Part shown: positions 1-12,747 of the stretch, piece by piece
Numbering within the stretch: the first letter of the stretch is position 1
Layout: the number at the start of each line of letters is the position of its first letter
UHGV virus genome: UHGV-0250286
DNA: 12,747 bases
Origin: a virus
Direction: 5' to 3' (one strand)
The notes under the pieces: generated by a model
What the model saw: the letters and a program-made list of their open reading frames with translations, nothing else
What the model was told of the DNA's origin: nothing
Database searches by the model: none
Made by a program: the position numbers and the translations under genes

Positions 1-134
1 AGGTGAATCATTGGGGAGTGCCGTTAAGCGGTATATGTCAATGAATACTGACGCAGCGCCAGCACAAGATTCGACACCTTCAGGAGAACCACGGAATCAG
101 GTTGGATCATATACCTCAAGATCAGGCATTCAAT

Positions 135-1208
135 TTACTCAACGTCTTTATCCGTTGCTGGGCCGGGAGGTAGGAATTTAAGAACCTGACTGTTAACAAG
201 GGCATTTTGGCGAATGCGCAAATCACGCAATGTCGTATCGCTTCCGGTAAGTTTTGCGAACATGTTCTGTGCGTTACCGAACAAGCCGGTCGTTGGTTTT
301 TCTGCTCTGAACTGTTGAGCAAGCGCACTCATGGAATTGGCTGAGTTTGATGATGCTGTGGCATTGTTTACAGCCGTCTCGATGCCTTTTTCCATGTTTA
401 CTGACAGCTTAGGTGCTTCGCTAATCAACTGCTGAGCCTTTTCCTGCGCTTGCTGCATCTTAAACCCGAACTCTTGCTGATCCAGAGCCAAGCGTTGTGC
501 TGCGATATTGTGCCCAGTCATTGCTGACTGATAGGAAAGGTTTTGCCCTCTCGCCTGAAGTGCTTCACCAGCCTGATTGCTGCGGATTGTCTCTGCCAGC
601 CCGCCTCGGTCAATCTCACGACCAGCCATCTTGTCCTGAACATTGAAGTAATCAATCGGACCAAGAGCAGCCATTCCAAGGTGATCAACAAACTCACCAA
701 ATCCTGAAGGATTCTGCTGATACATCTGAGCAACGCTGTTAGGGTCAACACCGACGCGAGTCAGTTCCTTGGCGTTGTTTTGCAGCCATGATTGCATTGC
801 TTCTGGAGACGATGACGCAAGGCGTGCGCCAGCCGCTAATGTACCGATAGAATTACGCTGGTCTTCATCAATGAATCCCATGCCTTTACGAACGGATTCA
901 ATCTGGTCTGGATATTGAGTAGCTAACTGACGCAAAGCACCGCGATCACCAGACGCATAAGCATTAGCGTATGCCTGCTGAAATTCTTTCTGCCGCTGAG
1001 CCTGCTTTTCCTGCTGAAACACCCCTGCAATACCTGAAAGGCCTTGCAAAGCAGTCAGCCCAACATTGTTAGCGCCTGAACGCTCAATATCATTGTTCTG
1101 CCTGATAAGCTGAAGCGTATTGCCGATGTCATTTACGCTCGGAGCGTTTGAGTTGACGCCGCCGATACCAGCCAACAATCCGCCGTTTGTTCCTTGCCAA
1201 GTAGCCAT
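135..1208 (-). CDS. ejection (E) protein, P22 gp20-like
   Basis: 357-aa ORF directly downstream of the gp7-like gene, the position gp20 occupies in P22. Start ATG at 1206-1208 is preceded by a GGGG Shine-Dalgarno in the 9-bp gap after the gp7 stop. Gln/Ala-rich, low-complexity composition typical of ejection proteins. Shorter than my recollection of P22 gp20 (~470 aa). Confidence 0.6.
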   Translation of the reverse strand: MATWQGTNGGLLAGIGGVNSNAPSVNDIGNTLQLIRQNNDIERSGANNVGLTALQGLSGIAGVFQQEKQAQRQKEFQQAYANAYASGDRGALRQLATQYPDQIESVRKGMGFIDEDQRNSIGTLAAGARLASSSPEAMQSWLQNNAKELTRVGVDPNSVAQMYQQNPSGFGEFVDHLGMAALGPIDYFNVQDKMAGREIDRGGLAETIRSNQAGEALQARGQNLSYQSAMTGHNIAAQRLALDQQEFGFKMQQAQEKAQQLISEAPKLSVNMEKGIETAVNNATASSNSANSMSALAQQFRAEKPTTGLFGNAQNMFAKLTGSDTTLRDLRIRQNALVNSQVLKFLPPGPATDKDVE

Positions 1209-1217
1209 GATTACCCC

Positions 1218-1910
1218 TTAAAACAACGAGCCAAGCAATCCGATACCAGCACCAATGCCAGCGCCCCAAGGCGTTGATGTTCCCAAAAGGCTGGCAAGAC
1301 CTGCACCGGCAATCGCACCAGACGTGCCACCGCTAATTGCAGTCTGAAGACTTGATGGTTTATTGGCATTAGCAGCGGCAAGTGCTGCGCTTTGCTGTGC
1401 AATGCTGCTCATGTTGTTGGCGTATGTCTGCCCAGCGTTTGCCTGACCTTGCAGCGCACCAAGCCCAACGTTTGCCAGATTGTTGTAATTGCTCATCTGA
1501 TTTGATAACCAAGACTGACCGAGTGTCGGCGCGATCGTAGCCAGTTGATTGCTTGTGGCTGTCGAACCAAGTCCACCCGTCGCCTCCGCAGCAGCAAGAC
1601 TCTGGTAACGAGCCTGCCCTGCAAGGTCTTTATACTGCTGAGAGTTGTAATACTGATTAAGTGCCTGCCCCTGACCTTCTAAACTGGAAAGGCTCTGAAG
1701 CTGGTTAACATACTGCTCCGCAAGAGGCGTGAACTGAGCAAGGTTTTTCATGATCGTCTGCCACTGCTGATTTTGCAGGTCTGCAGCATACTTCTGGGCT
1801 TCTGCTGCATACTTTGCGCTTTTATCAGAACTGCCACCTTTCCCGCCTTTTTCAGGGCAATAAGGTTCCTCGCCGCGCAGTTTTCTGCCCAGCTTAAATG
1901 CATATAACAT
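1218..1910 (-). CDS. ejection protein, P22 gp7-like
   Basis: 230-aa ORF. N-terminus MLYAFKLGRKLRGEEP... and the Gly/Ala-rich C-terminus ...WGAGIGAGIGLLGSLF match the P22 gp7 family as I recall it. Correct position between the gp14-like and gp20-like genes. Confidence 0.8.
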   Translation of the reverse strand: MLYAFKLGRKLRGEEPYCPEKGGKGGSSDKSAKYAAEAQKYAADLQNQQWQTIMKNLAQFTPLAEQYVNQLQSLSSLEGQGQALNQYYNSQQYKDLAGQARYQSLAAAEATGGLGSTATSNQLATIAPTLGQSWLSNQMSNYNNLANVGLGALQGQANAGQTYANNMSSIAQQSAALAAANANKPSSLQTAISGGTSGAIAGAGLASLLGTSTPWGAGIGAGIGLLGSLF

Positions 1911-1912
1911 GG

Positions 1913-2371
1913 CTATCTCCCGTGATTCAGGAAGTCGATTAGTTCTTCGCGTGTGGCGCTGTAAAACGTCACGTCATCCACGCCTTTAAAGTATTTCTTG
2001 ATGGTTCCTACACGATTAAGGCCAATCATTGCGCAGTACATCTGCCCGTGGCGGAATTTGCGTGCAGCGAACGATGTGACACACTGAACAGTGGTGTTAG
2101 TCAGAATGTATCGCCAGAACGCCAGCCCGATTTCCTTGCTGAATCCACGAACCTCTGGCAGGTACATGGCGTGGCAATCAAAGGTCAAAGGCTGAATCTC
2201 CTGATAGTAAACAATGCCGCCGAACTGCCCGTGCACGTTCACCTCGAAGTAACGGCATTCAGGCTTGTAGTCGTATCCATCACCGTTGTTGCTCCCGGCA
2301 ATAATGTCAGGGTGATTTCCGACTGCTTCGATCAGGTCGATGTTTCGCGTTTGGTTGAACTGAATCATCAC
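1913..2371 (-). CDS. P22 gp14-like protein (assigned by position)
   Basis: 152-aa ORF between the tail needle and gp7-like genes, where gene 14 sits in P22. Its ATG (2369-2371) overlaps the tail needle stop as ATGA, suggesting translational coupling. Assignment is positional only. Confidence 0.5.
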
Positions 2372-3321
2372 TGCTCCGCGATTATCTTGATGGTTGTGGC
2401 AGTAAACGCCGCCACATTTGACTGGATGGTTAACGTACTGCCATTTGTGGCAAGAAAGCCGTCTTTATCCACGCTGAAGAACGTAGCTAACAGGATGTTA
2501 TCGGTTGTTGTCGCCGAGTTGCGACTGCTTACCAGTGTGTCAGGAACAGATCCGGAAAAGGTTAGCTGCATTGACCTGTTTGCGGTTCCGCTGGGCCACG
2601 TCCCGACAATCGACAGCTTGAAGAACAGGGTTTTGTTCTCGTTGAAAACAACCATCTTGTTGTTATCAGTATCGAAGAATGGTGCCAACGTCCCGGATGA
2701 CGGCGTGAGCGTTTTCAGCAGGCTAACAAGGTTGGTCGGCGCTGTTGGAATGGTTACCGATACTCCTGAGTAAACAACCTCTGATTTCTTGCGCGTGGTG
2801 GCATACTCAAGCGCAGATATTCTTGTTGAGTGATCACCAACTGTGCTTTGTAGCGTCGAAATACTTCCCTCTGCCGCTGTGAGCCTGGTATCAAGTGCGT
2901 TGATATCGGTTGTATTCTGAGTTATTCGCGCATCATGGTTTGCTAACTCAGATTCATTGGCAGCAATTCGCGTCTCGTGATCAGCCAGCTCTGTTTCGGC
3001 AGCCGTAATCCTTGTTTCATGATCTGCAAGAGTGCTTTCCGCTGCTGCGATTCTATGTTCATGATTGACGAGAGTTGCTTCAGCAGCAGCAATTCTGGAT
3101 TCATGGTCTGCAAGGGTGACATCCTGCTCATCATTCTTCACCTGTGCATCATAAGCTCCCTTCCCTGCTTCGTTGGCCTTGTTAGCCACGTTACCAACAT
3201 CAGTACCCTGTGCGATAACGTACAGCAGATATGACTGCGAGAAGATATTGCGTGGAAGGACTGATGTGTCGAGTCGTGTAGCCTGAATGATTACCGGCTC
3301 ATTGAGATTCGAATCAGCCAT
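2368..3321 (-). CDS. tail needle (P22 gp26 family) with a C-terminal knob-type domain
   Basis: True start is [43 protein letters not shown]..., the conserved gp26 N-terminal domain. Its ATG (3319-3321) overlaps the gp10 stop. A central coiled-coil repeat region is followed by a ~150-aa Ser/Thr-rich C-terminal domain unlike the P22 gp26 C-terminus, resembling the knob seen in Sf6/HK620-type needles. The ORF track's 351-aa form includes an upstream extension I regard as spurious. Confidence 0.8.
2905..3114 (-). repeat. five imperfect 42-bp tandem repeats (14-aa repeats) in the tail needle coiled-coil region
   Basis: Protein shows [14 protein letters not shown] / [14 protein letters not shown] / [14 protein letters not shown] / [14 protein letters not shown] / [14 protein letters not shown]. 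The DNA shows recurring gcagcaattc/gcagccgtaatc/gctgcgattc blocks. Confidence 0.7.
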
Positions 3322-4748
3322 TACTCGATCCTTATCTGGCAGCCAGACAGAGTGACAGGTGACTTCGTGATAACGCGCAATTTGAAGCCGACATTTTTCC
3401 TGATGCGCCCGACTCGCTTCCACAAAACACGCTTGTCGTAAACGAACGGTTCATTCTGCTCAATCATCTGCTCACGACCGTAATTGATGCCATCAGTGGT
3501 TGCCGAGAGGAACAGGCGGTCGGCGTACTGAGCGACCCCCGTCGATGATTCCACCTCCAGATCAAAGCATCTGGCGTTATCTGCTTTGAAGAGTGGAGTA
3601 AACAGCAGGTGTTCTTGCTGTAGCCCATACTGGCTGCTGATGTCGAACTGCAATTTTCCGGTCACGGACTCCAGCTTATCGCCGCACGTTATCTGATTGC
3701 CTTCGTAAATGAAGTCGATAGCGCGGTACACATCGTCATACAGGCCTGTTTTCAGCACACACCATTGCGGACCATTGGCGCTTGAAGATGCGTCGTACAC
3801 AAGGACGTGACGCGAAAGATGGATAATCAGCAACTCATGAGCATCAAACCGCAACGATTCCATCACACCATCAGCCAGTTCATCAGCAGTGTAGGAGCGG
3901 AGGATTTTCTCAATGCTCGCGCTGGCGATTGGTGATACCTGACCGGAGCCGATGATGTATACAGACGGAGCACCTGTTGCCGGATTGCTGATAAACGCAT
4001 AGGAATCAGCAAACGGCGTTTTGCAGTAAGTTCCGGCAATGCCTTTCTGCACCATCAGTGATGGCTGTGCGACATACAAAGCGGCACCAACGGTGGTTGC
4101 CCCAGTCAGGGAAAAATATTCAATCGTCGATGAACCAAAGCAGACGATGAAGTCTCGCCATGTTCCGATGCCGAGGATACCGTCCGGCTGCGATTCTGCG
4201 CGATATTGTGCGCTGTAACGGTCAGGATGCGATTCGTCTTCAGGGTCAGTGATAAACCATGAATCCGTGCCGTCTTTTGACCACGCATAACGCCCACGTA
4301 AACGCGTAATGTCGCGAACCGAACCTAACTCATACTGAGTGAATCCGCTGTCTGTAGGCCAGTTTGAGACTGTTTTAACCGTTCCATCATAGCGATACTC
4401 GACCAGTTGACCATTAACGCCTACCGCCTGAGATGTTCGACCATGCGCCATTGATACGCGACCACTTCCGGCAACATCACCGACCTCGCTTTCGCCCTTA
4501 TACAACTTGCCACCGCAAACGCGATAAACAGCATTCTGCGCCATGTTGTACTCGACACCGCGCGATACACCATTCACATCAGAGCGTTTGGCAATGCCAG
4601 GGAATGAGCGAAGATATCCACTGCTGTTGAGGATTTCTTTGGGGGTTGCCAGCATATTCACTGGCAGATAGTCGATATAGTCGGCGTTTCGAAAGTCTTT
4701 GCCACCTTGAAATGATGATGGCTGAATGGCTTGGCGGTGATGTGTCAC
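3321..4748 (-). CDS. gp10-like head-completion/tail-hub protein; native first ~12 codons replaced at a rearrangement junction
   Basis: From [38 protein letters not shown]... to the C-terminal ...[11 protein letters not shown] the ORF matches the P22 gp10 family. Upstream of codon G(12) at about 4703 the reading frame continues into the reverse complement of a gp4 fragment ([15 protein letters not shown]), beginning with GTG at 4748 and no Shine-Dalgarno. The native N-terminus [20 protein letters not shown] is found instead on the plus strand at 5089-5151. Confidence 0.7.
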
Positions 4749-4807
4749 CTGGTATCAACGTTGGCTACATTTTCGCTGATGCAGATGTCGCTCCAGATCC
4801 GGGCGAT
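4678..4807. repeat. left junction block: 26-bp (4678-4703) plus 104-bp (4704-4807) segments whose exact reverse complements occur at 5125-5150 and 5151-5254
   Basis: I reverse-complemented both segments by hand and they match 26/26 and 104/104. 4678-4703 is tagtcggcgtttcgaaagtctttgcc; 4704-4807 runs accttgaaatgatgatggct...gatccgggcgat. Confidence 0.9.
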
Positions 4808-5089
4808 GAGCACGGTTTATCAAATAACGCTATCAATGCCGTCATTTTCAACCTTGCCTGCCGCATTGCTCCGGATTATGCGCTGGAAGCGTCTGCAAAA
4901 CTTATAACCACTGCCAGATACGGGAAAGAGAGACTCGTCAAACTGTCTGCAATGGACAGAGCAAAAGCCGCTAAATGTAAGTCCGGTTATCCAAACCGTA
5001 TGCCTGTTGGTAGTGGTAACCAGTTGGCGAAGTGGAACGGCTGGAATTACTTCCAGCGAAAGGAACCTTGCGATAACGGGAGCGAATAA
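4704..5089 (+). pseudogene. 3' portion of the gp4-like adaptor gene, inverted onto the plus strand
   Basis: Plus-strand frame encodes [127 protein letters not shown]. Joined to the minus-strand N-terminal fragment this gives a ~166-aa gp4-like protein. No Shine-Dalgarno ahead of this fragment. Confidence 0.75.
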
Positions 5090-5151
5090 TGCCGATTCAG
5101 CAACTTCCGCTTATGAAAGGTGTCGGCAAAGACTTTCGAAACGCCGACTAA
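5089..5151 (+). pseudogene. first 20 codons of the gp10-like gene, inverted onto the plus strand and detached from the gene body
   Basis: ATG at 5089-5091 overlaps the gp4 stop (TAATG) and encodes [20 protein letters not shown], then a stop. GKDFRNAD continues as YIDYLPVN only on the minus strand at about 4677. Confidence 0.75.
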
Positions 5152-5254
5152 TCGCCCGGATCTGGAGCGACATCTGCATCAGCGAAAATGTAGCCAACGT
5201 TGATACCAGGTGACACATCACCGCCAAGCCATTCAGCCATCATCATTTCAAGGT
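5125..5254. repeat. right junction block: 26-bp (5125-5150) and 104-bp (5151-5254) inverted copies of 4678-4703 and 4704-4807
   Basis: ggcaaagactttcgaaacgccgacta followed by atcgcccggatctggagcgacatc...catttcaaggt. Perfect reverse-complement identity to the left block, but the two sub-blocks are in swapped order, so this is not a simple palindrome. Confidence 0.9.
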
Positions 5255-5369
5255 CGTTGACGCCGTCTTCCATAGACTGCGGTTCGACATCGGTTAACGT
5301 GGCATTTGATGCCACACCGAGCTTACGTAATGCCGCAAGAACTAAATCACCCTTCGTTGTCAGGTTCAT
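5148..5369 (-). pseudogene. 5' portion of the gp4-like adaptor gene (73 codons), ending in a junction-created TAG
   Basis: ATG at 5367-5369 with an AGGCGG Shine-Dalgarno 6 nt upstream. Encodes [73 protein letters not shown], then TAG exactly at the 5150/5151 junction. The track's upstream [10 protein letters not shown]... extension is the hexanucleotide repeat read in another frame. Confidence 0.75.
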
Positions 5370-5595
5370 CTGCTGCCGCCTTAGGTTTTCGACCAGGCTT
5401 TTTACGCTGTTTTTCTTCTGGCTCTGGCTCTGGCTCTGGCTCTGGCTCTGCAACATCATTCAGAAGATTATCAGGATGTGCAAACCAGCCAGCATCCAGA
5501 TATTCCTGAAGCTCTTCGGCTTTCACGATTTCAAAGTCGTATCCAACGCCTTTCCATTTCTTCATGTCGCCATGACGAAAGATCATGTGTGTCAT
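5347..5595 (-). CDS. hypothetical small protein (82 aa) between the coat and adaptor genes, with an acidic (EP)5 repeat and a basic KKPGRKPK tail
   Basis: ATG at 5593-5595 with a GGAG Shine-Dalgarno 6 nt upstream, located just downstream of the post-coat terminator. Encodes [82 protein letters not shown]. Its 3' end overlaps the gp4 start by 23 nt. Sf6-type genomes carry a small ORF in this position; P22 itself, as I recall, does not. Confidence 0.55.
5417..5450. repeat. hexanucleotide microsatellite, (GCTCTG) x5 plus a partial unit
   Basis: tctg gctctg gctctg gctctg gctctg gctctg is read directly in the sequence. It encodes (EP)n in the 82-aa ORF on the minus strand. Confidence 0.9.
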
Positions 5596-5608
5596 GCTTG
5601 TCTCCAGA

Positions 5609-5632
5609 TAAAAAAGGGAGCCGAAGCTCCCT
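5609..5632 (-). terminator. rho-independent terminator immediately downstream of the coat gene
   Basis: Minus-strand RNA would read aGGGAGC-uucg-GCUCCCu followed by UUUUUU: a perfect 6-7 bp GC-rich stem, a UUCG tetraloop and a U-tract, 8 nt after the coat TGA stop. There is no T-tract in the plus-strand orientation. Confidence 0.75.
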
Positions 5633-5639
5633 CTGGTTA

Positions 5640-6935
5640 TCACGCAGTCTGGTTAGGCAGACCAACACCAATTGCCTCTGGTCGTACAGCACATGCTGAA
5701 TACCACACAGCAATACGGCACTTACCAGACAGAGTGTTGATATCACCCTGCGTTGCGAAGATGCCGTTAACACCAATACCTGGAATGCTGAAGGAAGAAG
5801 TTTTCATGCCAGCAAACAGTTCATGGGTTACCGGAATCGGCTGAGACAGCAGGCGGATTGAGTCATCAGCCCAGAACACGTTAGCGGTGGTTGTTGCCAC
5901 GTTCAGAACGTTTACCGGAGTGGTATTAGCAAGAGAGGTGTTTACGTTAGCGTAAGCCTTCTCTTCTTTTGTCAGTGACGCGTCATCCAGCGCAATCGGC
6001 TTCGGCGTGATTTCGATGTGAGTATTATCGATCACTCGGGTGATTGAGAAAGTCGCATCATCAGTCAGCACGTTCTTCGCCATCTGAGACAGGAATTTCA
6101 CACCAGTGAAGCTGATTTTGTCGCCGCGCTTAAATCCGGTGGTGGAGGATACGGTCACCGTTGCAACACGGTTGTCGACGTTCTCCTTGTTACCATCGGT
6201 ATCAAGGGTGTATGCCTGCGGCTTAAACTTCTGCGCTCCAGACACAGTTACACCAGTAGCGGTTGACTTGGTAACTGCCGGAAGTTTCGGTGAGCGAAGA
6301 ATTTCATCAAAGCCAGCAATCTGACGCTGAATAGTACCGTTGCGATACGCTTCTTCAGGAACGCGACCGAAGATGTCACCATCTACCAGGTTGCGGCCTG
6401 CTTTGCGGTAATCGTCAGGATTCAGGAAGTAACTGATGCCCATATCGCGGTTTAGCTCACGGGAGAACATCAGTCGCTCTGCATCAGACACAAAATCCCA
6501 TCCAGACAGGCCAGTAGATGGACCAATTGCGCGGGTATCGTGAACAACAAGCGAGCCCATTTCAGTTGCCTGTTTGGCAATTGCTGACTCAATGTTATTC
6601 GCCAGTTTTTTGGCGGATGCCTGGATGCGGCGACGGTAAGAACGCTCATCACGCAGGTCATCTGCACGAAGCTCGAAGAAATCGTTATCCGGATCGCCCA
6701 TGTTGCATTTCACGGAGAGTTCCAGAATCCCGGTTGCGTTGTCAGTTAAATCCCAGCCAGTCTGGGTTGGCGCTTCCTGCTCAACAGGCATCCACACGGT
6801 GTTGCTTGAACGCTGCATTGATTCTGCCGGAGGGGTGTATTTTGTCACTTTGGACGCCATTGGCGTCAGGTTCTGGACGGTTTCGATGATTTCATCCAGA
6901 GCATATGTGACCAGTTGACCTTCATTTAATGCCAT
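5640..6935 (-). CDS. major capsid (coat) protein, P22 gp5 family
   Basis: 431 aa. [27 protein letters not shown]...[14 protein letters not shown] is collinear with the P22 coat protein as I recall it ([20 protein letters not shown]...GVGLPGQTA). ATG overlaps the scaffold stop. Confidence 0.95.
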
Positions 6936-7846
6936 TATCGAATTCCTTTATTCAGTTGCGCCTTAAGCTTGCGGTACGTCTCTACATCCCCTTTGTTTGC
7001 TGCCGCTTCCATCTGCTTTTCAATCGCAGAGATATTTGCAGCAACAGCGTGTCCCTGAATGGGTTCATCAGGTAACGGGGCTTCTGAAACAGGCTTTGCT
7101 CGAGGCTTGAGAGTTAAACGTTCTGACAGTCGAGTGAGTTCAATCAGCGCGGATTGCCCGTCCATCGCCAGCAACTGGCGTGTTTTCTCAGGATTAGCAC
7201 CAAGGTGATACATGAGAGCAGCGGATTTCTCCGGGAAGAGGCGCATGATGTCGGCACCGACTGCTGGCGGCACCAGTTGCATGAATGCATCCTCTTTCTC
7301 CTGATAGTCAGGGATATTGAGCTTTTCCGCTGCGTCGTAGTGCTTACGGGCTGCCTCGACGTATTGCGCTGATTGCTGGGTGAACTCCTGAGTTTTGCGA
7401 CCCTGCTCGGCGACAGCCTGGCTTCGTGCGTCCATAGCCTTGATCTGCCATTCACTGTTTGCCTGCTGGAAGGCAGCCAGTGCGCGGCTCTGGTCATAGT
7501 CGTACTTAGCCAGTGCATCTTCGGAAAGATAATCGTTAGGGTCTGGTTGTTTTGGTAACTCAGGGTTCACCCGCAGGTGCTCCGGCAACTCTCCACGCTT
7601 AACCGCTTCCATCTGCTGCTCAAGCTCACGCTGGCGTTTGCGTTCGATGCGGCGACGGGCAAATTCAGCATTAGTTGCCGGGTCTTGTTTTGGTTTCTCA
7701 TCGTCTTTCAGGACAATCTCAAAGCCTTCTTCCTGACCTGCACTGTCGTTGGCATTATCGACAACTAAGCCATCAGCAGATGCCGCTGCATGATTGCCGG
7801 GCAGGGTTAATTCTTCAGAAGCCTGAATGTCGGTGGTTTGGTCCAT
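6935..7846 (-). CDS. scaffolding protein, P22 gp8 family
   Basis: 303 aa, highly charged and helical in composition, between portal and coat. Same length as P22 gp8. A GAGAGAG Shine-Dalgarno precedes the ATG. Confidence 0.93.
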
Positions 7847-7859
7847 GGTTAACTCTCTC

Positions 7860-10025
7860 TTATTGAGGTGTCTCGGCTACTCCGCCGGAGGGGATTTGAA
7901 CTTGACGCATAAGATTCGCGAAATCCATGCGTTGTGAATGAGTCTGGTCTGCATCTTTAAGAAGCAGCTCAGCGTTAGCACGAGCATCTTTGCTGCGCTG
8001 TTGCTGGAATTGAACTACGAGCTTGAGGTACTCACGCAGTTCTGCCTGCTTGTCGAGGTCCATATTGTTGAAGATTTCTGCAATCTTCGCGGCGTTGAGT
8101 TGGTTTTGGGCTTCAACCTTGGCGGCTTCAACCTGAATCTGCGCCTGTTGGTTCTCTGCCTTGAGCAATTCAGCCTGACCTTGCAGAAGGATACCCTGCG
8201 CCTGAATTTGCTCTGCTGATGGCTGCTGCGGCTGCTGTTGAGCCTGCTGTACCATCTCCATCTCTTCAGGTGTTTCTGGTTTCTTCAGCCCCATCATCAC
8301 CAGTTGCTTGTTCGCGTACTCTCGCATCATCTCGACGCCTTTACCGTCAAGCAGCGTGAAGTATTGCAGCATCAGCATCTGGAACTCTGGAGTACCTTGC
8401 GGAACCTTGGTGAGCAACTCCTGAATCTCTGCGCGGTTCTGTTCCTTCATGCTCTGGAAGGATGGTCCAACTCCTATATAGCACTCGTAGCGACCGCGAA
8501 TGTCGTTGAGTGTGACCACATTACCGGACTGGTAATCGACAACTTGCGCGTAGAGTTGAACGTCTTTCTCGCTTCCATCTTCAAGTGTCAGCGTTACATG
8601 ACGAGGGATGTCATAAATATCATTGACCATTGAGGCATAAATCTCGCCATCACGCCGCATTGCGGTAGCCAGGTTATCCTGAAACACGTATGTCTCAAGG
8701 TCTGACCGCATGTTCAGTTGATTGACGGTATCGAAAGAGACCTGAGAGTTTGCTGCCTGTGCATCCACGCCAAGACTAGCCACCTCTTTCACTGCGTTGG
8801 TGGCAGCCTCAAGCATGTAAGCGTTGGCTTGCGGCACTTCAGGGTTTTCCATGTAGGAGATTGGACCAATCGGCAGGTCGTTACCGTTTTCATCAGTCCT
8901 GTTCTGGAGATAGTACGGATAGTCATCATTTCCACCGTACATGTATTCGTAGCCTTCGATTTGCTCAGGGAAGAAGGTCGGTTTCTTCTTCGGTGAACGA
9001 CCAACAATATCGGCGTTGAATGACATGATCATGTTACGAAGGCGTTGACCGTCTTTCGTCAGCCTTACCACTCCTTCGTAGCACTCCTTGTCACCAGCGA
9101 ATGACCATTCGCCATACACTGGAACGATTGGAATATGCTCTCCTGCTATCTTCTCGCGGTCTTTCAGTATCTGTGTGCAGGTGATGATCGACTTATACAC
9201 ACGCCGACGCTTCACCTTGCGCTCTGCTACCTTAATGAATCCACGATTAGCCAGGTCGTCGATGACGTCTTTAATATCCTGCTGGTAATAGCTGACCGGC
9301 TCACCTGTCAGCGGGTCGCGGTAGATGAAGACCTTCTCTTTCTTCTCTTCTATCTCGTAATACTCAGCGACGTAGACGACATCATTCGATACCCACGGAA
9401 ACAGCCATGTGTCGTTCGGATTCTGGAAAGATGGCAAGGTGTCCGGATCAATACCGTAATCCTCTGCGAACTCTTTCCAGCCATTGCGTGACAAGGCGTT
9501 AATCACCGTGCAGTGCTTAGCGTCGCTCTTATCCATCTGCTTGCTGTTGGCGTCCCATATGACGTGTGAGCAGGCCTCATGGATTGGCAGGCGTCTGATT
9601 ACCTGATTGTTGCTTGTTGGATCGTTGTCTTCGTACTGTGTGACCAGACGCCATGCACCAACGCCGGACTCTATCTGCTCACGAACGCCAACGTTAACGG
9701 CAATCTTTGCCGTGTTATGGCGCATATCAGTACGATACATCCCCATCAACACATCGGCTGCATCAGGATTAGCGCCGTCTTTGGGTCGGAAGAGAACGTC
9801 GATAGGGTTCCGGCGCATCTCTGCGACCAGTTTCCTGACCACTGGGCGAACAACATCGAATTGTCCGCGATATTGCAGGGTGGTGTAGTTTGATAGCCAG
9901 TCATCCCATTGCGACACTCGGCTAAAAAACAGGTCATTTGTCGCCTCGGTTCTGGCTTCATCGCTCGCCATCCAGTCTGCGTCAAACTTACACAGAATGG
10001 AATTGAGTCTGTTTTCGTCGGCCAT
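7860..10025 (-). CDS. portal protein, P22 gp1 family
   Basis: 721 aa. [44 protein letters not shown]... and the C-terminal ...[10 protein letters not shown] match the P22 portal family. The Gln-rich C-terminal barrel region is present. Confidence 0.95.
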
Positions 10026-11525
10026 TTAAGTTCTCCGTGCGATGGGCCTGATTGGGGCTGGTATCTTTTTCTCTTTTGGTTTTTTGATGTCGCGCATCAT
10101 TTTGGCGAAGCGGCGCATCATGTATGCATAGCGAACGGCTGAGAGAACGTCGTCGTTAAGCTTGACGATCTTCCCGTTTTCATCACGGTGATAGAGGCGG
10201 AACTCCTCAAAGAATGGCTCACAGGTGTTGAATACTTTGAAGCGACCATCGAGCATCATGTCGCGCAATTCAGTGATGCCAGGCTCCACAGCATTACCGC
10301 CATCAGGCCATGTCGCATGCTCCTGCAACATCATAAAACCAGCGTCCGCGTACTGCCCTTTGAGCTGCTCACCGCCGCCCTTCTCATGCTGGTTTCCGTC
10401 ATGAGGCCATGCGGTTGGCACTTTATGCGCCCATGATTTAACAGCTCCCCATGCCTGAACAGCTGTTTTTTCTTTCGCCTTCCACACGCGTGAAACGTAG
10501 ATTGTGTCTGCGTCCTTATCCCACCAAAGCTGAACCTGCGCCTGTGGGTGATCCCATCCGAAATCCATCCCACCAATTACGTAGAAGTGATCAGGACACT
10601 CGAACGGCTGACACTTAATAGTCTCTTCCGGTATCTGGAAGATTCGACCACTACCCATCGTAGGAATACCGCGAGCACGCGCCTCTCTCTCATGCTCGGG
10701 ATAGGATGCGATGATTTGCTCTTTCTGCTCGTCGGTGTAGTGCTCTGCGTCATAGATGGTCATGTTGACCACTTTCTGCGACTTGCTGGGATTCTTCAGG
10801 AACTTGGTAACAACGTCAGACATCCCCATCAGCGGGGTAAACGTCAGAATTGAGAATTGCCCGTATTTGTTGGTACGGGTAAGACCTTCGCCATAAATGC
10901 TGTATGGTGGCTCTTCGTCAAACCACACGCCGTGGATTGTGTCACCCTGCCAGCGAGCGCGGCCTTGCGAGTATGGTTTGAAGTAGCAGATTGAAATGCC
11001 ATCTTCAACGCCATCAGCCGTGTGATGCTTAACCAGAAGATGATCAACAAGGTTCGGAAAGAAAGGAGACTTCTTCCAGCTAATGATGTCCTCTTTCGGT
11101 ATAGAACCGTAGCCCGGTTCATCATTCTCTTCAATACGACCGCACAGGATGCGTTGAGTCGTTTTGGTTACCGTCTCGTTTGTCTCGCCACCAATCCAGA
11201 AGACAACAGGCTCATAGAAACGCTTACCTTTCCACTCCCCACCATATTTACCATCAGCAGGATAGCCTTTTGTGCCCGGATAACGCCCTGTAAGGTGAAA
11301 CGCGACTTCAGCAGCACCAGTAAATGACTTACCAAGCTGGTTACCAGCCATAAAACAGCGCTCTGGATAGTCATGCCCGGCGTCGATGAACTCACGCTGT
11401 TTGCTGTATGGCGTAAATTCATATAGCAGGTGTGTGTTCCGGTAGTTCTCTTCTTCTTCGAGTAGCTCGAGCAATTCGATTTGCTCTTCGTCGCTCAGGT
11501 TATCAAGAATCGCGTCCAGTTCCAC
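10026..11525 (-). CDS. terminase large subunit, P22 gp2 family
   Basis: 499 aa, the same length as P22 gp2. Has a Walker A-like motif ([10 protein letters not shown]) and a nuclease-type C-terminal half. Stop TAA abuts the portal ATG (TTAAATG) with a GGAGAA Shine-Dalgarno. Confidence 0.95.
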
Positions 11526-11991
11526 GGTTGAATAGCTCCTTGATACGAGAGCGTCGCTTATCGCGATCTCCCTTATCAGGTGTCACGTCTTCAACTTGCG
11601 ACTGCTCTTTGAGGCCCAAATCACGGGCGATGATGTTAGCGTTGAGAAGGTCAGCGGCTGCGCCAGAGAATTTCTGGTCGTAGATGATGTCTTCCGCTCG
11701 TGATGTGACGTCAGAAAAACCTTCCATTGACCGGAAGGTTCCCCATGTTTGCCTGGTGATATCAAGGAAGGTACACAATCCTGAAATAGTCATGGCTCGC
11801 ATCTTAGGGACATTAGCCTTAATTATTTCTCCCTGATATGAAAATACCTTACCCTCCCATAGCGGGTTATCATCAGCCCACTCGAAGTATTCACAACAAG
11901 CTGCCCACAGCGCCTCAGGCGATTCGAATTTAGGATTTCGCCCATGACTACTGCGGGCCTCCCAAAATCGGTTGCCCTTTGGTGCTGCCAT
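11503..11991 (-). CDS. terminase small subunit, P22 gp3 family
   Basis: [38 protein letters not shown]...[14 protein letters not shown], 162 aa from the second ATG (Shine-Dalgarno AGTGAG 6 nt upstream). The track ORF begins two codons earlier (MNM..., 11997). Overlaps the large terminase gene by 23 nt. Confidence 0.9.
11701..11724 (-). other. candidate pac (packaging initiation) site, diverged from the P22 pac sequence
   Basis: Minus strand reads gaaggtttttctgacgtcacatca (codons EGFSDVTS) at the position in the small terminase gene where the P22 pac site GAAGATTTATCTGAAGTCGTTA (codons EDLSEVV) lies, as I recall it. Several positions match (GAAG.TTT.TCTGA.GTC). Confidence 0.35.
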
Positions 11992-12026
11992 ATTCATCTC
12001 ACTTAATCGTTATTTCAGGTTGAGCA

Positions 12027-12269
12027 TCATGCTCCGGTGGTGAACAGGTCTAACGCCTCCTTCGATTTACGCACCGCTTCGATTGTGCGGGTCGTGATAT
12101 CTGAATTAGCGCCACCTGACTGGAAGTGAATTTTGAATAGCTCAAGCTTCAGCTCGTCAGTGCCAATGAACTGAAATGCTTCTTCTGCGGCTGCGTTCTG
12201 GTTCATGACCAGTTTGTAAATCTCTAACTGGAATTTCTGTTCTTCAGTCATGGGAATAATCTCTGCCAT
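12027..12269 (-). CDS. hypothetical protein (80 aa) immediately upstream of the small terminase gene
   Basis: Open frame MAEIIPMTEEQKFQLEIYKLVMNQNAAAEEAFQFIGTDELKLELFKIHFQSGGANSDITTRTIEAVRKSKEALDLFTTGA ending 30 nt before the small terminase Shine-Dalgarno. Weak ribosome-binding site, start uncertain, and I do not recognise the family. Confidence 0.35.
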   Translation of the reverse strand: MAEIIPMTEEQKFQLEIYKLVMNQNAAAEEAFQFIGTDELKLELFKIHFQSGGANSDITTRTIEAVRKSKEALDLFTTGA

Positions 12270-12351
12270 TGTTGGCTCAAGATTCTTTGTGGTGGCGGAC
12301 TGATGGAAAGACATCCGCTGAATCGATGATAAACAAGTGGAAGAGGTTGCG

Positions 12352-12522
12352 ATGGTTTCCGTGAACAAAGATCCGAAGGAAGGCGTTGAATACATCACTG
12401 GTGCTGATGGTGTGAAAAGACCAATGGCTTATTACAAAGCGGCTGAAGAGAGGGCAAGAATAGAAAATCCCCCTAAATGCGGATCATTTTTCGACATGCT
12501 GGACCTTCAATGGAAGTTGTGA
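12352..12522 (+). CDS. hypothetical small protein (56 aa) on the strand opposite the late operon
   Basis: ATG at 12352 with a strong GGAAGAGG Shine-Dalgarno 5 nt upstream. Encodes MVSVNKDPKEGVEYITGADGVKRPMAYYKAAEERARIENPPKCGSFFDMLDLQWKL. A terminator-like hairpin follows 11 nt after the stop. Confidence 0.4.
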   Translation: MVSVNKDPKEGVEYITGADGVKRPMAYYKAAEERARIENPPKCGSFFDMLDLQWKL

Positions 12523-12532
12523 ACAACTAACA

Positions 12533-12557
12533 GGTCGCTCAGGCGGCCTTTTTTATT
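12533..12557 (+). terminator. candidate rho-independent terminator for the plus-strand small ORF
   Basis: GGUCGC-ucag-GCGGCC (6-bp stem with one G.U pair) followed by UUUUUUAUU. The minus-strand orientation has no U-tract, so it would not stop late-operon transcription. Confidence 0.35.
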
Positions 12558-12747
12558 GCCATCACAAAAGCCATTCCCTACAGAGTGGCTTTGGTAATGG
12601 CTTATAATCAGGCAGGAGGTTCATCTTTCAGTGGCTGCCAGTGTTATTTCCCCACTTACTGGCTTGGGTTGTTTCGCGGTACTGCCGTAACTGGTTGCCC
12701 AGAATAAATTCCGGTTTCATTATCAAGCCCACCCGTAGATAGGCTTT

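What the first reader, a model, noticed from the sequence alone, without database searches (positions are those of the whole stretch)
4678..5254. Inverted segment with perfect flanking inverted duplications at the gp4/gp10 junction
In a normal P22-type genome gp4 and gp10 are contiguous on one strand. Here 4704-5150 (gp4 codons from LEMMM to the stop, plus the first 20 codons of gp10) lies on the plus strand. Its two ends are duplicated in inverted orientation on the opposite sides: 104 bp at 4704-4807 versus 5151-5254, and 26 bp at 4678-4703 versus 5125-5150, both 100% identical. In window orientation the structure is X'-Y-Z-X-Y', where the wild type would be X'-Z'-Y', so the locus is 130 bp longer than wild type with its centre inverted. 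Flipping the segment would not restore the wild type, so this is not a simple invertase switch. It looks like a fold-back or template-switch inverted duplication, a chimeric assembly, or an engineered construct.
Basis: seen in the sequence. Interest (0 to 1): 0.85.

Follow-up and report, generated by a model that had tools for sequence, protein, structure and literature searches.

The report
Backwards-joined piece in a prophage sequence
The inverted gp4/gp10 segment is really in the sequence, but it is one of three short pieces put in backwards by blunt joins in an otherwise wild-type P22-like E. coli prophage, so it is most likely a sequence-construction artefact and not a biological switch.

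Summary
Window 4704-5150 (447 nt) is reverse-complemented relative to wild type. It is bracketed by perfect inverted duplications of 26 nt and 104 nt, which makes the locus 130 nt longer than wild type.

The event is not unique in the window. Against a public wild-type contig (L007, ENA ERZ1304673 NODE_230), the window splits into six segments. Each is a 100% exact substring of L007, and their strands alternate: 1-138, 139-4703, 4704-5150, 5151-12278, 12279-12606 and 12607-12747. That gives five strand-switch junctions and three short inverted pieces.

- **Junctions:** All five are blunt, with 1, 0, 0, 0 and 0 nt of microhomology. The wild-type breakpoints carry no inverted repeats.
- **Uniqueness:** No junction was found in any collection it was checked against: 5,426 complete E. 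coli genomes, 50,697 phage records, IMG/VR, and (for J1-J3) GTDB genomes or JGI metagenomes. The wild-type site is common.
- **Damage:** The events cut three genes whose P22 counterparts are essential (gp20, gp10, gp4).
- **Placement:** Each inverted piece brackets a mosaic, variable module, as an assembly-graph bubble arm would.

Blunt junctions argue against template switching or MDA chimeras. Missing repeats argue against an invertase. The best reading is misjoined or misoriented short pieces, from assembly or in-silico handling. Interest is low.

The parts
1..138 (.). S0: the first inverted piece, cut by the window's left end. It is the reverse complement of wild-type T2083-2220, which is the C-terminal end of the gp20-like ejection protein gene. 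Junction J0 lies at 138/139. The next segment starts 327 nt further on in wild type (T2410).
   Evidence: No E. coli genome or phage record spans J0. The J0 28-mer is absent from IMG/VR.
139..4703 (-). S1: a collinear wild-type block (T2410-6974). It holds gp20' (codons 1-356, ORF 135-1208), gp7, gp14, the gp26 tail needle and gp10 codons 13-472.
   Evidence: Exact substring of L007. Gene identities come from the Pfam table for L007 and the RefSeq annotation of L001.
4678..4703 (.). X': the 26-nt end of S1 (gp10 codons 13-20 plus 2 nt). It is the inverted duplicate of 5125-5150.
   Evidence: (repeat I2, 100%).
4704..5150 (+). S2: the inverted 447-nt piece of the finding. It is the reverse complement of wild-type T6949-7395 and carries gp4 codons about 39-166 with the stop, plus gp10 codons 1-20, now on the plus strand. 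Junction J1 is at 4703/4704 and J2 at 5150/5151. Both have 0 nt of microhomology.
4704..4807 (.). Y: the 104-nt inner copy (gp4 codons about 39-73, plus strand). It is the inverted duplicate of 5151-5254.
5125..5150 (.). X: the 26-nt inner copy, forming the end of the gp10 codon 1-20 stretch on the plus strand.
5151..5254 (.). Y': the 104-nt outer copy at the start of S3. It belongs to the truncated gp4 N-terminal fragment (minus-strand ORF 5148-5369, 73 aa), whose TAG stop is created by junction J2.
5151..12278 (-). S3: a collinear wild-type block (T7292-14419). It holds gp4 codons 1-73, an 82-aa ORF with an (EP)n repeat, coat, scaffold, portal, large terminase, small terminase and DUF2560.
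   Evidence: Exact substring of L007. Gene table.
12279..12606 (.). S4: the third inverted piece (328 nt). It is the reverse complement of wild-type T14466-14793 and contains a 56-aa hypothetical ORF. Here 46 nt and 7 nt of wild type are lost at the two ends (a delINVdel form). Junction J3 is at 12278/12279 and J4 at 12606/12607. Both are blunt.
   Evidence: No E. coli genome spans it. The J3 and J4 26-mers are absent from IMG/VR, and J3 is absent from GTDB genomes.
12607..12747 (-). S5: the collinear wild-type tail (T14801-14941, 141 nt). The window's right end falls on a mosaic boundary of the phage family.

Best explanation
This is not a biological element. The window is the late (structural) region of a common P22-like E. 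coli prophage. Three short pieces (at least 138, 447 and 328 nt) sit at their proper places but in reverse orientation, joined to their neighbours by blunt end-to-end joins. The 26-nt and 104-nt perfect inverted duplications of the finding are stretches of wild type held both by the backwards piece and by its two neighbours. At the third piece the ends fall short instead, so 46 nt and 7 nt are missing.

The most likely origin is the construction of the sequence record. The phage's variable modules came out as separate short contigs, as graph bubble arms do, and were then re-joined in the right order but the wrong orientation, without overlap merging. An equivalent in-silico manipulation of a wild-type contig would give the same result.

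Shown: the six-segment structure, the blunt junctions, the uniqueness of the junctions and the gene disruption. Inferred: the step at which the misjoins arose.
For: 1. The window decomposes into six alternating-strand segments. Each is a 100% exact substring of the wild-type contig L007.
2. There are five strand-switch junctions in 12.7 kb, not one event.
3. Microhomology at the junctions is 1, 0, 0, 0 and 0 nt. That matches random blunt concatenation, where P(1 nt or less) is 0.84 per junction.
4. None of the junction k-mers occurs in IMG/VR. JGI metagenomes lack J1 and J2, and GTDB genomes lack J1 and J3. None of the 131 fetched loci has J1 or J2. The wild-type site is present in more than 120 IMG/VR contigs.
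5. No place in 5,426 complete E. coli genomes or 50,697 phage records is collinear across J0, J1/J2 or J3/J4.
6. Contigs that carry the identical portal protein all have an intact gp4 (166 aa) followed by gp10 (472 aa). L008 and L010 share five of the six segments exactly and are collinear.
7. The chimeric ORF products are not on record in the 153-billion-gene index.
8. Three genes are cut: gp20, gp10 and gp4. Their P22 counterparts are essential (my knowledge).
9. Each inverted piece brackets a mosaic variable module plus a short conserved flank. The random-segment P values are 0.029, 0.034 and 0.055. The number of related loci aligned falls 131 to 42 to 101 across S2 and 40 to 7 to 34 across S4.
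10. The window's right end lies on a mosaic boundary, as a real contig end would.
Against: - No reads are available, so the junctions cannot be shown to lack read support.
- A pure de Bruijn assembler cannot invent junction k-mers, so a separate joining step, or real chimeric molecules, has to be assumed.
- Simulating unitig boundaries against 130 relatives at k = 15-141 did not reproduce all piece ends with any single k.
- The overlaps (26 and 104 nt) and the gaps (46 and 7 nt) do not match one fixed k-1.
- The module-bracketing statistic rests on a locus set that is biased towards the S2 site.
- The strict alternation, long pieces forward and short pieces reversed, has only about a 6% chance if each contig's orientation were random.
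Confidence: 0.8

Rival explanations
1. Amplification or library chimeras captured by the assembler. In this reading, inverted template-switch products of multiple displacement amplification, or of an enzymatic fragmentation library, became dominant molecules and were assembled as such.
For: MDA chimeras are 85% inverted joins between segments less than 10 kb apart, at about one per 10-22 kb (PMC1855051). The five junctions here are all inverted joins with jumps of 327-421 nt. Viromes containing induced P22-like phages are often MDA-amplified (my knowledge).
Against: For inverted joins less than 10 kb apart, 93.5% of MDA junctions show at least 2 bp of priming complementarity. Here all five junctions have 1 nt or less. 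That has a probability of about 0.065^5, roughly 1e-6, under the MDA model. The pattern of a forward backbone carrying short inverted inserts needs paired switches 330-450 nt apart, at least twice. Chimeras are normally outvoted at normal sequencing depth.
Confidence: 0.06
2. A real in-vivo rearrangement by replicative template switching (FoSTeS/MMBIR, or a remodelled tandem inversion duplication) in a now-defective prophage. The fork copies forward to wild-type T6974, switches to the opposite strand at T7395, copies back to T6949, and then switches back at T7292.
For: The X'-Y-Z-X-Y' geometry is exactly the dupINVdup class of complex structural variants (PMC5338099). A prophage can tolerate the loss of gp4, gp10 and gp20.
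Against: The junctions are blunt, whereas polymerase re-priming needs microhomology. There are no quasi-palindromes at the wild-type breakpoints. It would take three such events, two of them double switches, within 12.7 kb that is otherwise 100% identical to wild type. There is no second occurrence anywhere.
Confidence: 0.04
3. A real in-vivo break-and-rejoin event, either staggered breaks or breaks in sister copies followed by end-joining. [quoted passage not shown]
For: The Drosophila staggered-break model predicts inverted duplications at both breakpoints, blunt non-homologous joins, and reciprocal deleted forms (PMC1885836). S2 is the duplicated form and S4 the deleted form, and the junctions are blunt.
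Against: E. coli has no Ku/LigD end-joining pathway, and its alternative end-joining is rare and usually microhomology-assisted (my knowledge, not tested here). Three clustered events are needed. No independent occurrence was found.
Confidence: 0.04
4. A programmed invertible segment, such as a Hin/Gin-type invertase switch or a shufflon.
For: An inverted segment bounded by perfect inverted repeats looks superficially like an inverton.
Against: The repeats are created by the rearrangement. Wild type has none at the breakpoints: the longest inverted match within 60 nt either side is 5-9 nt, the same as random positions. Flipping the segment does not restore intact genes. None of the Pfam families listed for this region's genes is a recombinase family. 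The two 130-nt blocks are not reverse complements of each other as wholes.
Confidence: 0.005

Closest known systems
dupINVdup / delINVdel complex structural variants of human genomes (Collins et al. 2017, PMC5338099)
   Same: The topology is identical. [quoted passage not shown] S4 is the form flanked by deletions.
   Different: Those variants are read-supported events, tens of kb to Mb in size, and are attributed to replication-based switching. Here the pieces are 330-450 nt, the junctions are blunt, three events sit within 12.7 kb, and there is no independent support.
Staggered-break inversions with inverted duplications in Drosophila (Ranz et al. 2007, PMC1885836)
   Same: Ancestrally unique sequence is duplicated in inverted orientation on both sides of an inversion, with non-homologous joins.
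   Different: That model requires NHEJ in a eukaryotic germline, and the inversions are fixed and shared between individuals. Here the host lacks canonical NHEJ and the arrangement is seen only once.
Inverted chimeras of multiple displacement amplification (Lasken & Stockwell 2007, PMC1855051)
   Same: Both involve local, strand-inverting joins at roughly one per 10-20 kb.
   Different: MDA junctions between nearby segments almost always show 2-21 bp of complementarity. These junctions show 0-1 nt. MDA typically gives single fold-backs, not short inverted inserts within a forward backbone.
Wild-type P22-like late operon (gp4 followed by gp10, overlapping by 1 nt)
   Same: All six segments are 100% identical to a wild-type contig of this phage lineage (L007), and the gene content is the standard P22-like morphogenesis module.
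   Different: The order is kept, but the orientation of three short pieces is reversed.

Membership tests
Site-specific invertible DNA switch (Hin/Gin/Cin, shufflon) | Inverted repeat recombination sites are present at the segment borders in the un-inverted state. | tested here: not met
   Wild-type L007 has no inverted repeats at the breakpoints above the random expectation. The repeats exist only as products of the rearrangement.
Site-specific invertible DNA switch (Hin/Gin/Cin, shufflon) | Inversion interconverts two functional states. | tested here: not met
   Flipping 4704-5150 gives neither an intact gp4 nor an intact gp10, because 130 extra nt remain.
Site-specific invertible DNA switch (Hin/Gin/Cin, shufflon) | A recombinase gene lies nearby. 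| tested here: not met
   None of the Pfam families listed for the genes of this region (gp20 to the 56-aa ORF) in L007 is a recombinase family.
Replicative template-switch rearrangement (FoSTeS/MMBIR, dupINVdup) | An inverted segment is flanked by inverted duplications. | tested here: met
Replicative template-switch rearrangement (FoSTeS/MMBIR, dupINVdup) | Microhomology is present at the junctions, to prime on the new template. | tested here: not met
   Microhomology is 1, 0, 0, 0 and 0 nt at the five junctions.
MDA inverted chimera | An inverted join links segments less than 10 kb apart, with an intervening jump. | tested here: met
   The jumps are 327, 421, 343, 374 and 335 nt.
MDA inverted chimera | At least 2 bp of complementarity at the junction (93.5% of local inverted chimeras, PMC1855051). 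| tested here: not met
Staggered-break / end-joining inversion | Inverted duplications occur at both breakpoints, with blunt non-homologous joins. | tested here: met
   (S2). S4 has the reciprocal deletion form.
Staggered-break / end-joining inversion | The host has an end-joining pathway, and the arrangement is inherited or shared. | tested here: not met
   The arrangement was found in no other genome or contig. The absence of Ku/LigD in E. coli is my knowledge and was not tested here.
Assembly / joining artefact | The junctions are unique to one record, while each segment is identical to wild type elsewhere. | tested here: met
   (100% exact segments). (junctions absent).
Assembly / joining artefact | Several junctions of the same kind occur in the same record, with no sequence logic at the joins. 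| tested here: met
   There are five blunt strand-switch junctions and no inverted repeats at the wild-type breakpoints.
Assembly / joining artefact | The pieces correspond to units that an assembler would emit separately. | tested here: inconclusive
   The pieces bracket variable modules (P about 0.03-0.05 each). Exact unitig simulation did not reproduce all the ends.
Assembly / joining artefact | Raw reads do not support the junctions. | not testable with these tools
   No reads are available and the source record was not found.

The most novel reading that the evidence does not exclude
The five junctions could be real: one clustered, chromoanagenesis-like event in a P22-like prophage of E. 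coli. Such an event would have cut out or re-copied three 0.3-0.45-kb pieces and rejoined them backwards by blunt joining, in a host with no canonical NHEJ. It would have preferentially hit the phage's mosaic modules.
Probability: 0.05. Interest if true: 0.6.

Novelty: not a real feature. Interest (0 to 1): 0.08.

Why it matters
If the structure were real, clustered blunt-ended micro-inversions with flanking inverted duplications in an enterobacterial prophage would point to an undescribed end-joining or multi-switch repair activity in E. coli or its phages. As an artefact, its value is practical. The record should not be used to infer gp4/gp10 gene structure, prophage decay or invertible elements. 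Any longer sequence from the same source should be screened for further backwards pieces of 0.3-0.5 kb.

Tried and rejected
1. **Source record.** I looked for it through the chimeric ORFs. gp10' (475 aa), gp4' (103 aa), gp20' (357 aa) and the 147-aa plus-strand ORF are not on record.
   - The 73-aa gp4' product hit one contig, L003, but that is a collinear wild-type gene with a GAG to TAG point change at the same codon. The match is a coincidence.
   - The 125-aa product hit L004, a wild-type contig that merely begins inside gp4.
2. **Junction k-mers.** I scanned for them exactly in IMG/VR (J0-J4), JGI metagenomes (J1, J2) and GTDB genomes (J1, J3). All scans returned zero. The positive control gave more than 120 hits.
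3. **Inverted repeats in wild type.** I tested for inverted repeats or quasi-palindromes at the wild-type breakpoints and found nothing above chance. One 9-mer reached P of about 0.03 among six tests.
4. **Near-junction microhomologies.** 'ACCTT' lies 3 nt from J1 and 'ATCG' 1 nt from J2. I treated these as chance.
5. **Mosaic boundaries.** I tested whether the breakpoints themselves sit on mosaic boundaries. They do not, with 0-2 alignment end-points within 10 nt either side. Only the window's right end does.
6. **Unitig simulation.** I simulated de Bruijn unitig ends against 130 relatives for k = 15-141. No single k explains all the ends. The single (L041, k = 95) match to both ends of S2 is expected by chance, and it mispredicts the flanks.
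7. **Read-pair concatenation.** I considered read-pair (R1+R2) concatenation, and the fact that S5 is 141 nt long, the same as the MEGAHIT maximum k. Neither explains both junction types or the 138-nt left piece.

Full report
**1.
The window is the late (morphogenesis) region of a P22-like E. coli prophage, read antisense. From right to left it carries small and large terminase, portal, scaffold, coat, gp4, gp10, tail needle gp26, gp14, gp7 and gp20 (annotations of the close relatives L001 and L007).

The repeat finder reports inverted arms at 4704-4810/5148-5254 (107 nt at 99%, with an exact 104-nt core) and at 4678-4703/5125-5150 (26 nt, 100%). These are the only inverted repeats of 18 nt or more in the whole window. 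The plus-strand ORF 4646-5089 reads ...[11 protein letters not shown]...DNGSE*, which is gp4 codons about 39-166. It is followed by [20 protein letters not shown], which is gp10 codons 1-20.

**2. The structure relative to wild type.**
A first comparison with the RefSeq prophage L001 showed a flip of 4704-5150. Unexpectedly, it also showed a flip of window 1-138.

Looking up the window's portal protein by exact sequence returned WT-collinear contigs, each with gp4 at 166 aa followed by gp10 at 472 aa. One of them is L007 (ENA ERZ1304673 NODE_230, 42.9 kb, coverage 40). It is 100.000% identical to every part of the window.

A greedy exact-substring decomposition gives six segments, each a perfect substring of L007, with alternating strand. 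Coordinates marked T are L007 in window orientation.

| Segment | Window | Wild type (T) | Orientation |
|---|---|---|---|
| S0 | 1-138 | 2083-2220 | reverse complement |
| S1 | 139-4703 | 2410-6974 | forward |
| S2 | 4704-5150 | 6949-7395 | reverse complement |
| S3 | 5151-12278 | 7292-14419 | forward |
| S4 | 12279-12606 | 14466-14793 | reverse complement |
| S5 | 12607-12747 | 14801-14941 | forward |

So the window has five strand-switch junctions and three short backwards pieces. The gp4/gp10 piece overlaps its neighbours by 26 and 104 nt, and those overlaps are the 'perfect inverted duplications'. The right-hand piece falls short of its neighbours by 46 and 7 nt. The left-hand piece is cut by the window edge.

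**3. The nature of the joins.**
For each junction I asked how far either segment could be extended across the join. The result is 1, 0, 0, 0 and 0 nt of microhomology. Random blunt joining gives 1 nt or less with probability 0.84 per junction.

Local inverted MDA chimeras show at least 2 bp of complementarity in 93.5% of cases (PMC1855051). Five junctions out of five at 1 nt or less therefore has a probability of about 1e-6 under that model. In-vivo replicative switching (FoSTeS/MMBIR) likewise needs priming homology.

The wild-type sequence has no inverted repeats around any pair of joined breakpoints beyond what random positions give. A recombinase or repeat-mediated inversion therefore has no substrate.

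**4. Uniqueness.**
- No place in 5,426 complete E. coli genomes or 50,697 phage records is collinear across J1/J2, J0 or J3/J4.
- Exact junction k-mers are absent from IMG/VR for all five junctions. J1 and J2 are absent from JGI metagenome contigs. J1 and J3 are absent from GTDB species genomes.
- None of the 131 fetched loci has J1 or J2.
- The phage itself is a widespread clone. L008 (NCBI GCA_049557475.1) and L010 (ERZ1303991) contain five of the six segments exactly, and both are collinear.
- The chimeric ORF products are not on record. Two apparent hits were coincidences: L003 is a wild-type gp4 with a nonsense point change at the same codon, and L004 is a wild-type contig that starts inside gp4.

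**5. Consequences for the phage.**
gp20 loses its last 112 codons or so. gp10 loses codons 1-12. gp4 is split after codon 73. The region upstream of DUF2560 is disturbed. In P22, gp4, gp10 and gp20 are essential (my knowledge), so the sequence cannot be a viable phage. It could only be a dead prophage or an artefact.

**6. Where the pieces lie.**
The internal breakpoints themselves are not mosaic boundaries, with 0-2 alignment end-points within 10 nt either side. Each backwards piece does, however, enclose a variable module plus a short conserved margin.
- S2 brackets the boundaries at T7015 and T7369. The number of loci aligned goes 131 to 42 to 101 across it.
- S4 brackets T14489 and T14757, where the count goes 40 to 7 to 34.
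- S0 contains T2111 and T2117.

The random-segment P values are 0.029, 0.034 and 0.055. The caveat is that most loci were selected by a k-mer next to S2.

This is the shape of a graph bubble arm, which is a piece an assembler emits separately when related phages co-occur. The window's right end also sits on a mosaic boundary, with 27 end-points within 10 nt either side against about 1.2 expected. That is typical of a genuine contig end. An exact unitig simulation for k = 15-141 against the available relatives did not reproduce all the piece ends with one k. The specific assembler mechanism therefore remains unproven.

**7. Interpretation.**
The evidence has five parts:
- several events of the same kind in one record;
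- blunt joins with no sequence logic;
- perfect identity of every segment to a public wild-type contig;
- absence of every junction from all searchable collections;
- placement of the pieces on graph-like units.

Together these point to a construction artefact. Short pieces were re-joined, or deliberately rearranged in silico, in the right order but the wrong orientation, without overlap merging. I put about 0.8 on this reading and about 0.9 on 'non-biological' overall, which includes library chimeras.

The geometry alone matches known real classes: dupINVdup and delINVdel complex variants (PMC5338099) and staggered-break inversions (PMC1885836). I therefore keep about 0.05-0.1 for a real clustered rearrangement. 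That reading would require end-joining in a host not known to have it, and three events within 12.7 kb of otherwise unchanged sequence.

**8. Verdict.**
This is not a real biological feature, and interest is low. Only reads or PCR from the source sample can close the question.

Noticed in passing
window 1-138 and 12279-12606: Two further short pieces are reverse-complemented relative to wild type. Their junctions are blunt, at 138/139, 12278/12279 and 12606/12607. They lie outside the finding's coordinates but are the same kind of event.
   Followed up: yes
window 5417-5450: A perfect hexanucleotide tandem repeat, (TCTGGC)x5.7, lies inside the small ORF between coat and gp4. It encodes an (EP)n / (SQ)n run. 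Copy number appears to differ between otherwise near-identical prophages. BLAST breaks the alignment at the repeat, matched spans range from about 1,870 to 1,960 nt across the listed genomes, and the small ORF is 78, 80 or 82 aa in L009, L008 and L007.
   Followed up: partly
window 12747 (wild-type T14939-14948): The window's right end coincides with a sharp mosaic boundary of the P22-like family. There are 27 alignment end-points within 10 nt either side, against about 1.2 expected. This suggests the window ends at a true contig end. The last segment, S5, is exactly 141 nt long.
   Followed up: partly
window 4731-5083 (wild-type T7016-7368): The C-terminal two-thirds of gp4 is a discrete mosaic module. 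About two-thirds of related loci (131 to 42) lose nucleotide similarity exactly between the gp4/gp10 boundary and gp4 codon 48 or so.
   Followed up: partly
L003 (ENA ERZ2271888 NODE_49682), positions 58-279: A low-coverage (0.84x) metagenome contig carries a collinear gp4 with a GAG to TAG change at codon 74. It yields exactly the same 73-aa product as the window's junction-truncated gp4. The match is a coincidence, and the change is probably a sequencing error or a nonsense variant.
   Followed up: yes
L002 (Escherichia phage Dewey PQ850600), locus 5880-6401: This related phage carries an HNH endonuclease gene inserted on the opposite strand between the scaffold and coat genes. It is absent from the window and from L001 and L007.
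   Followed up: no
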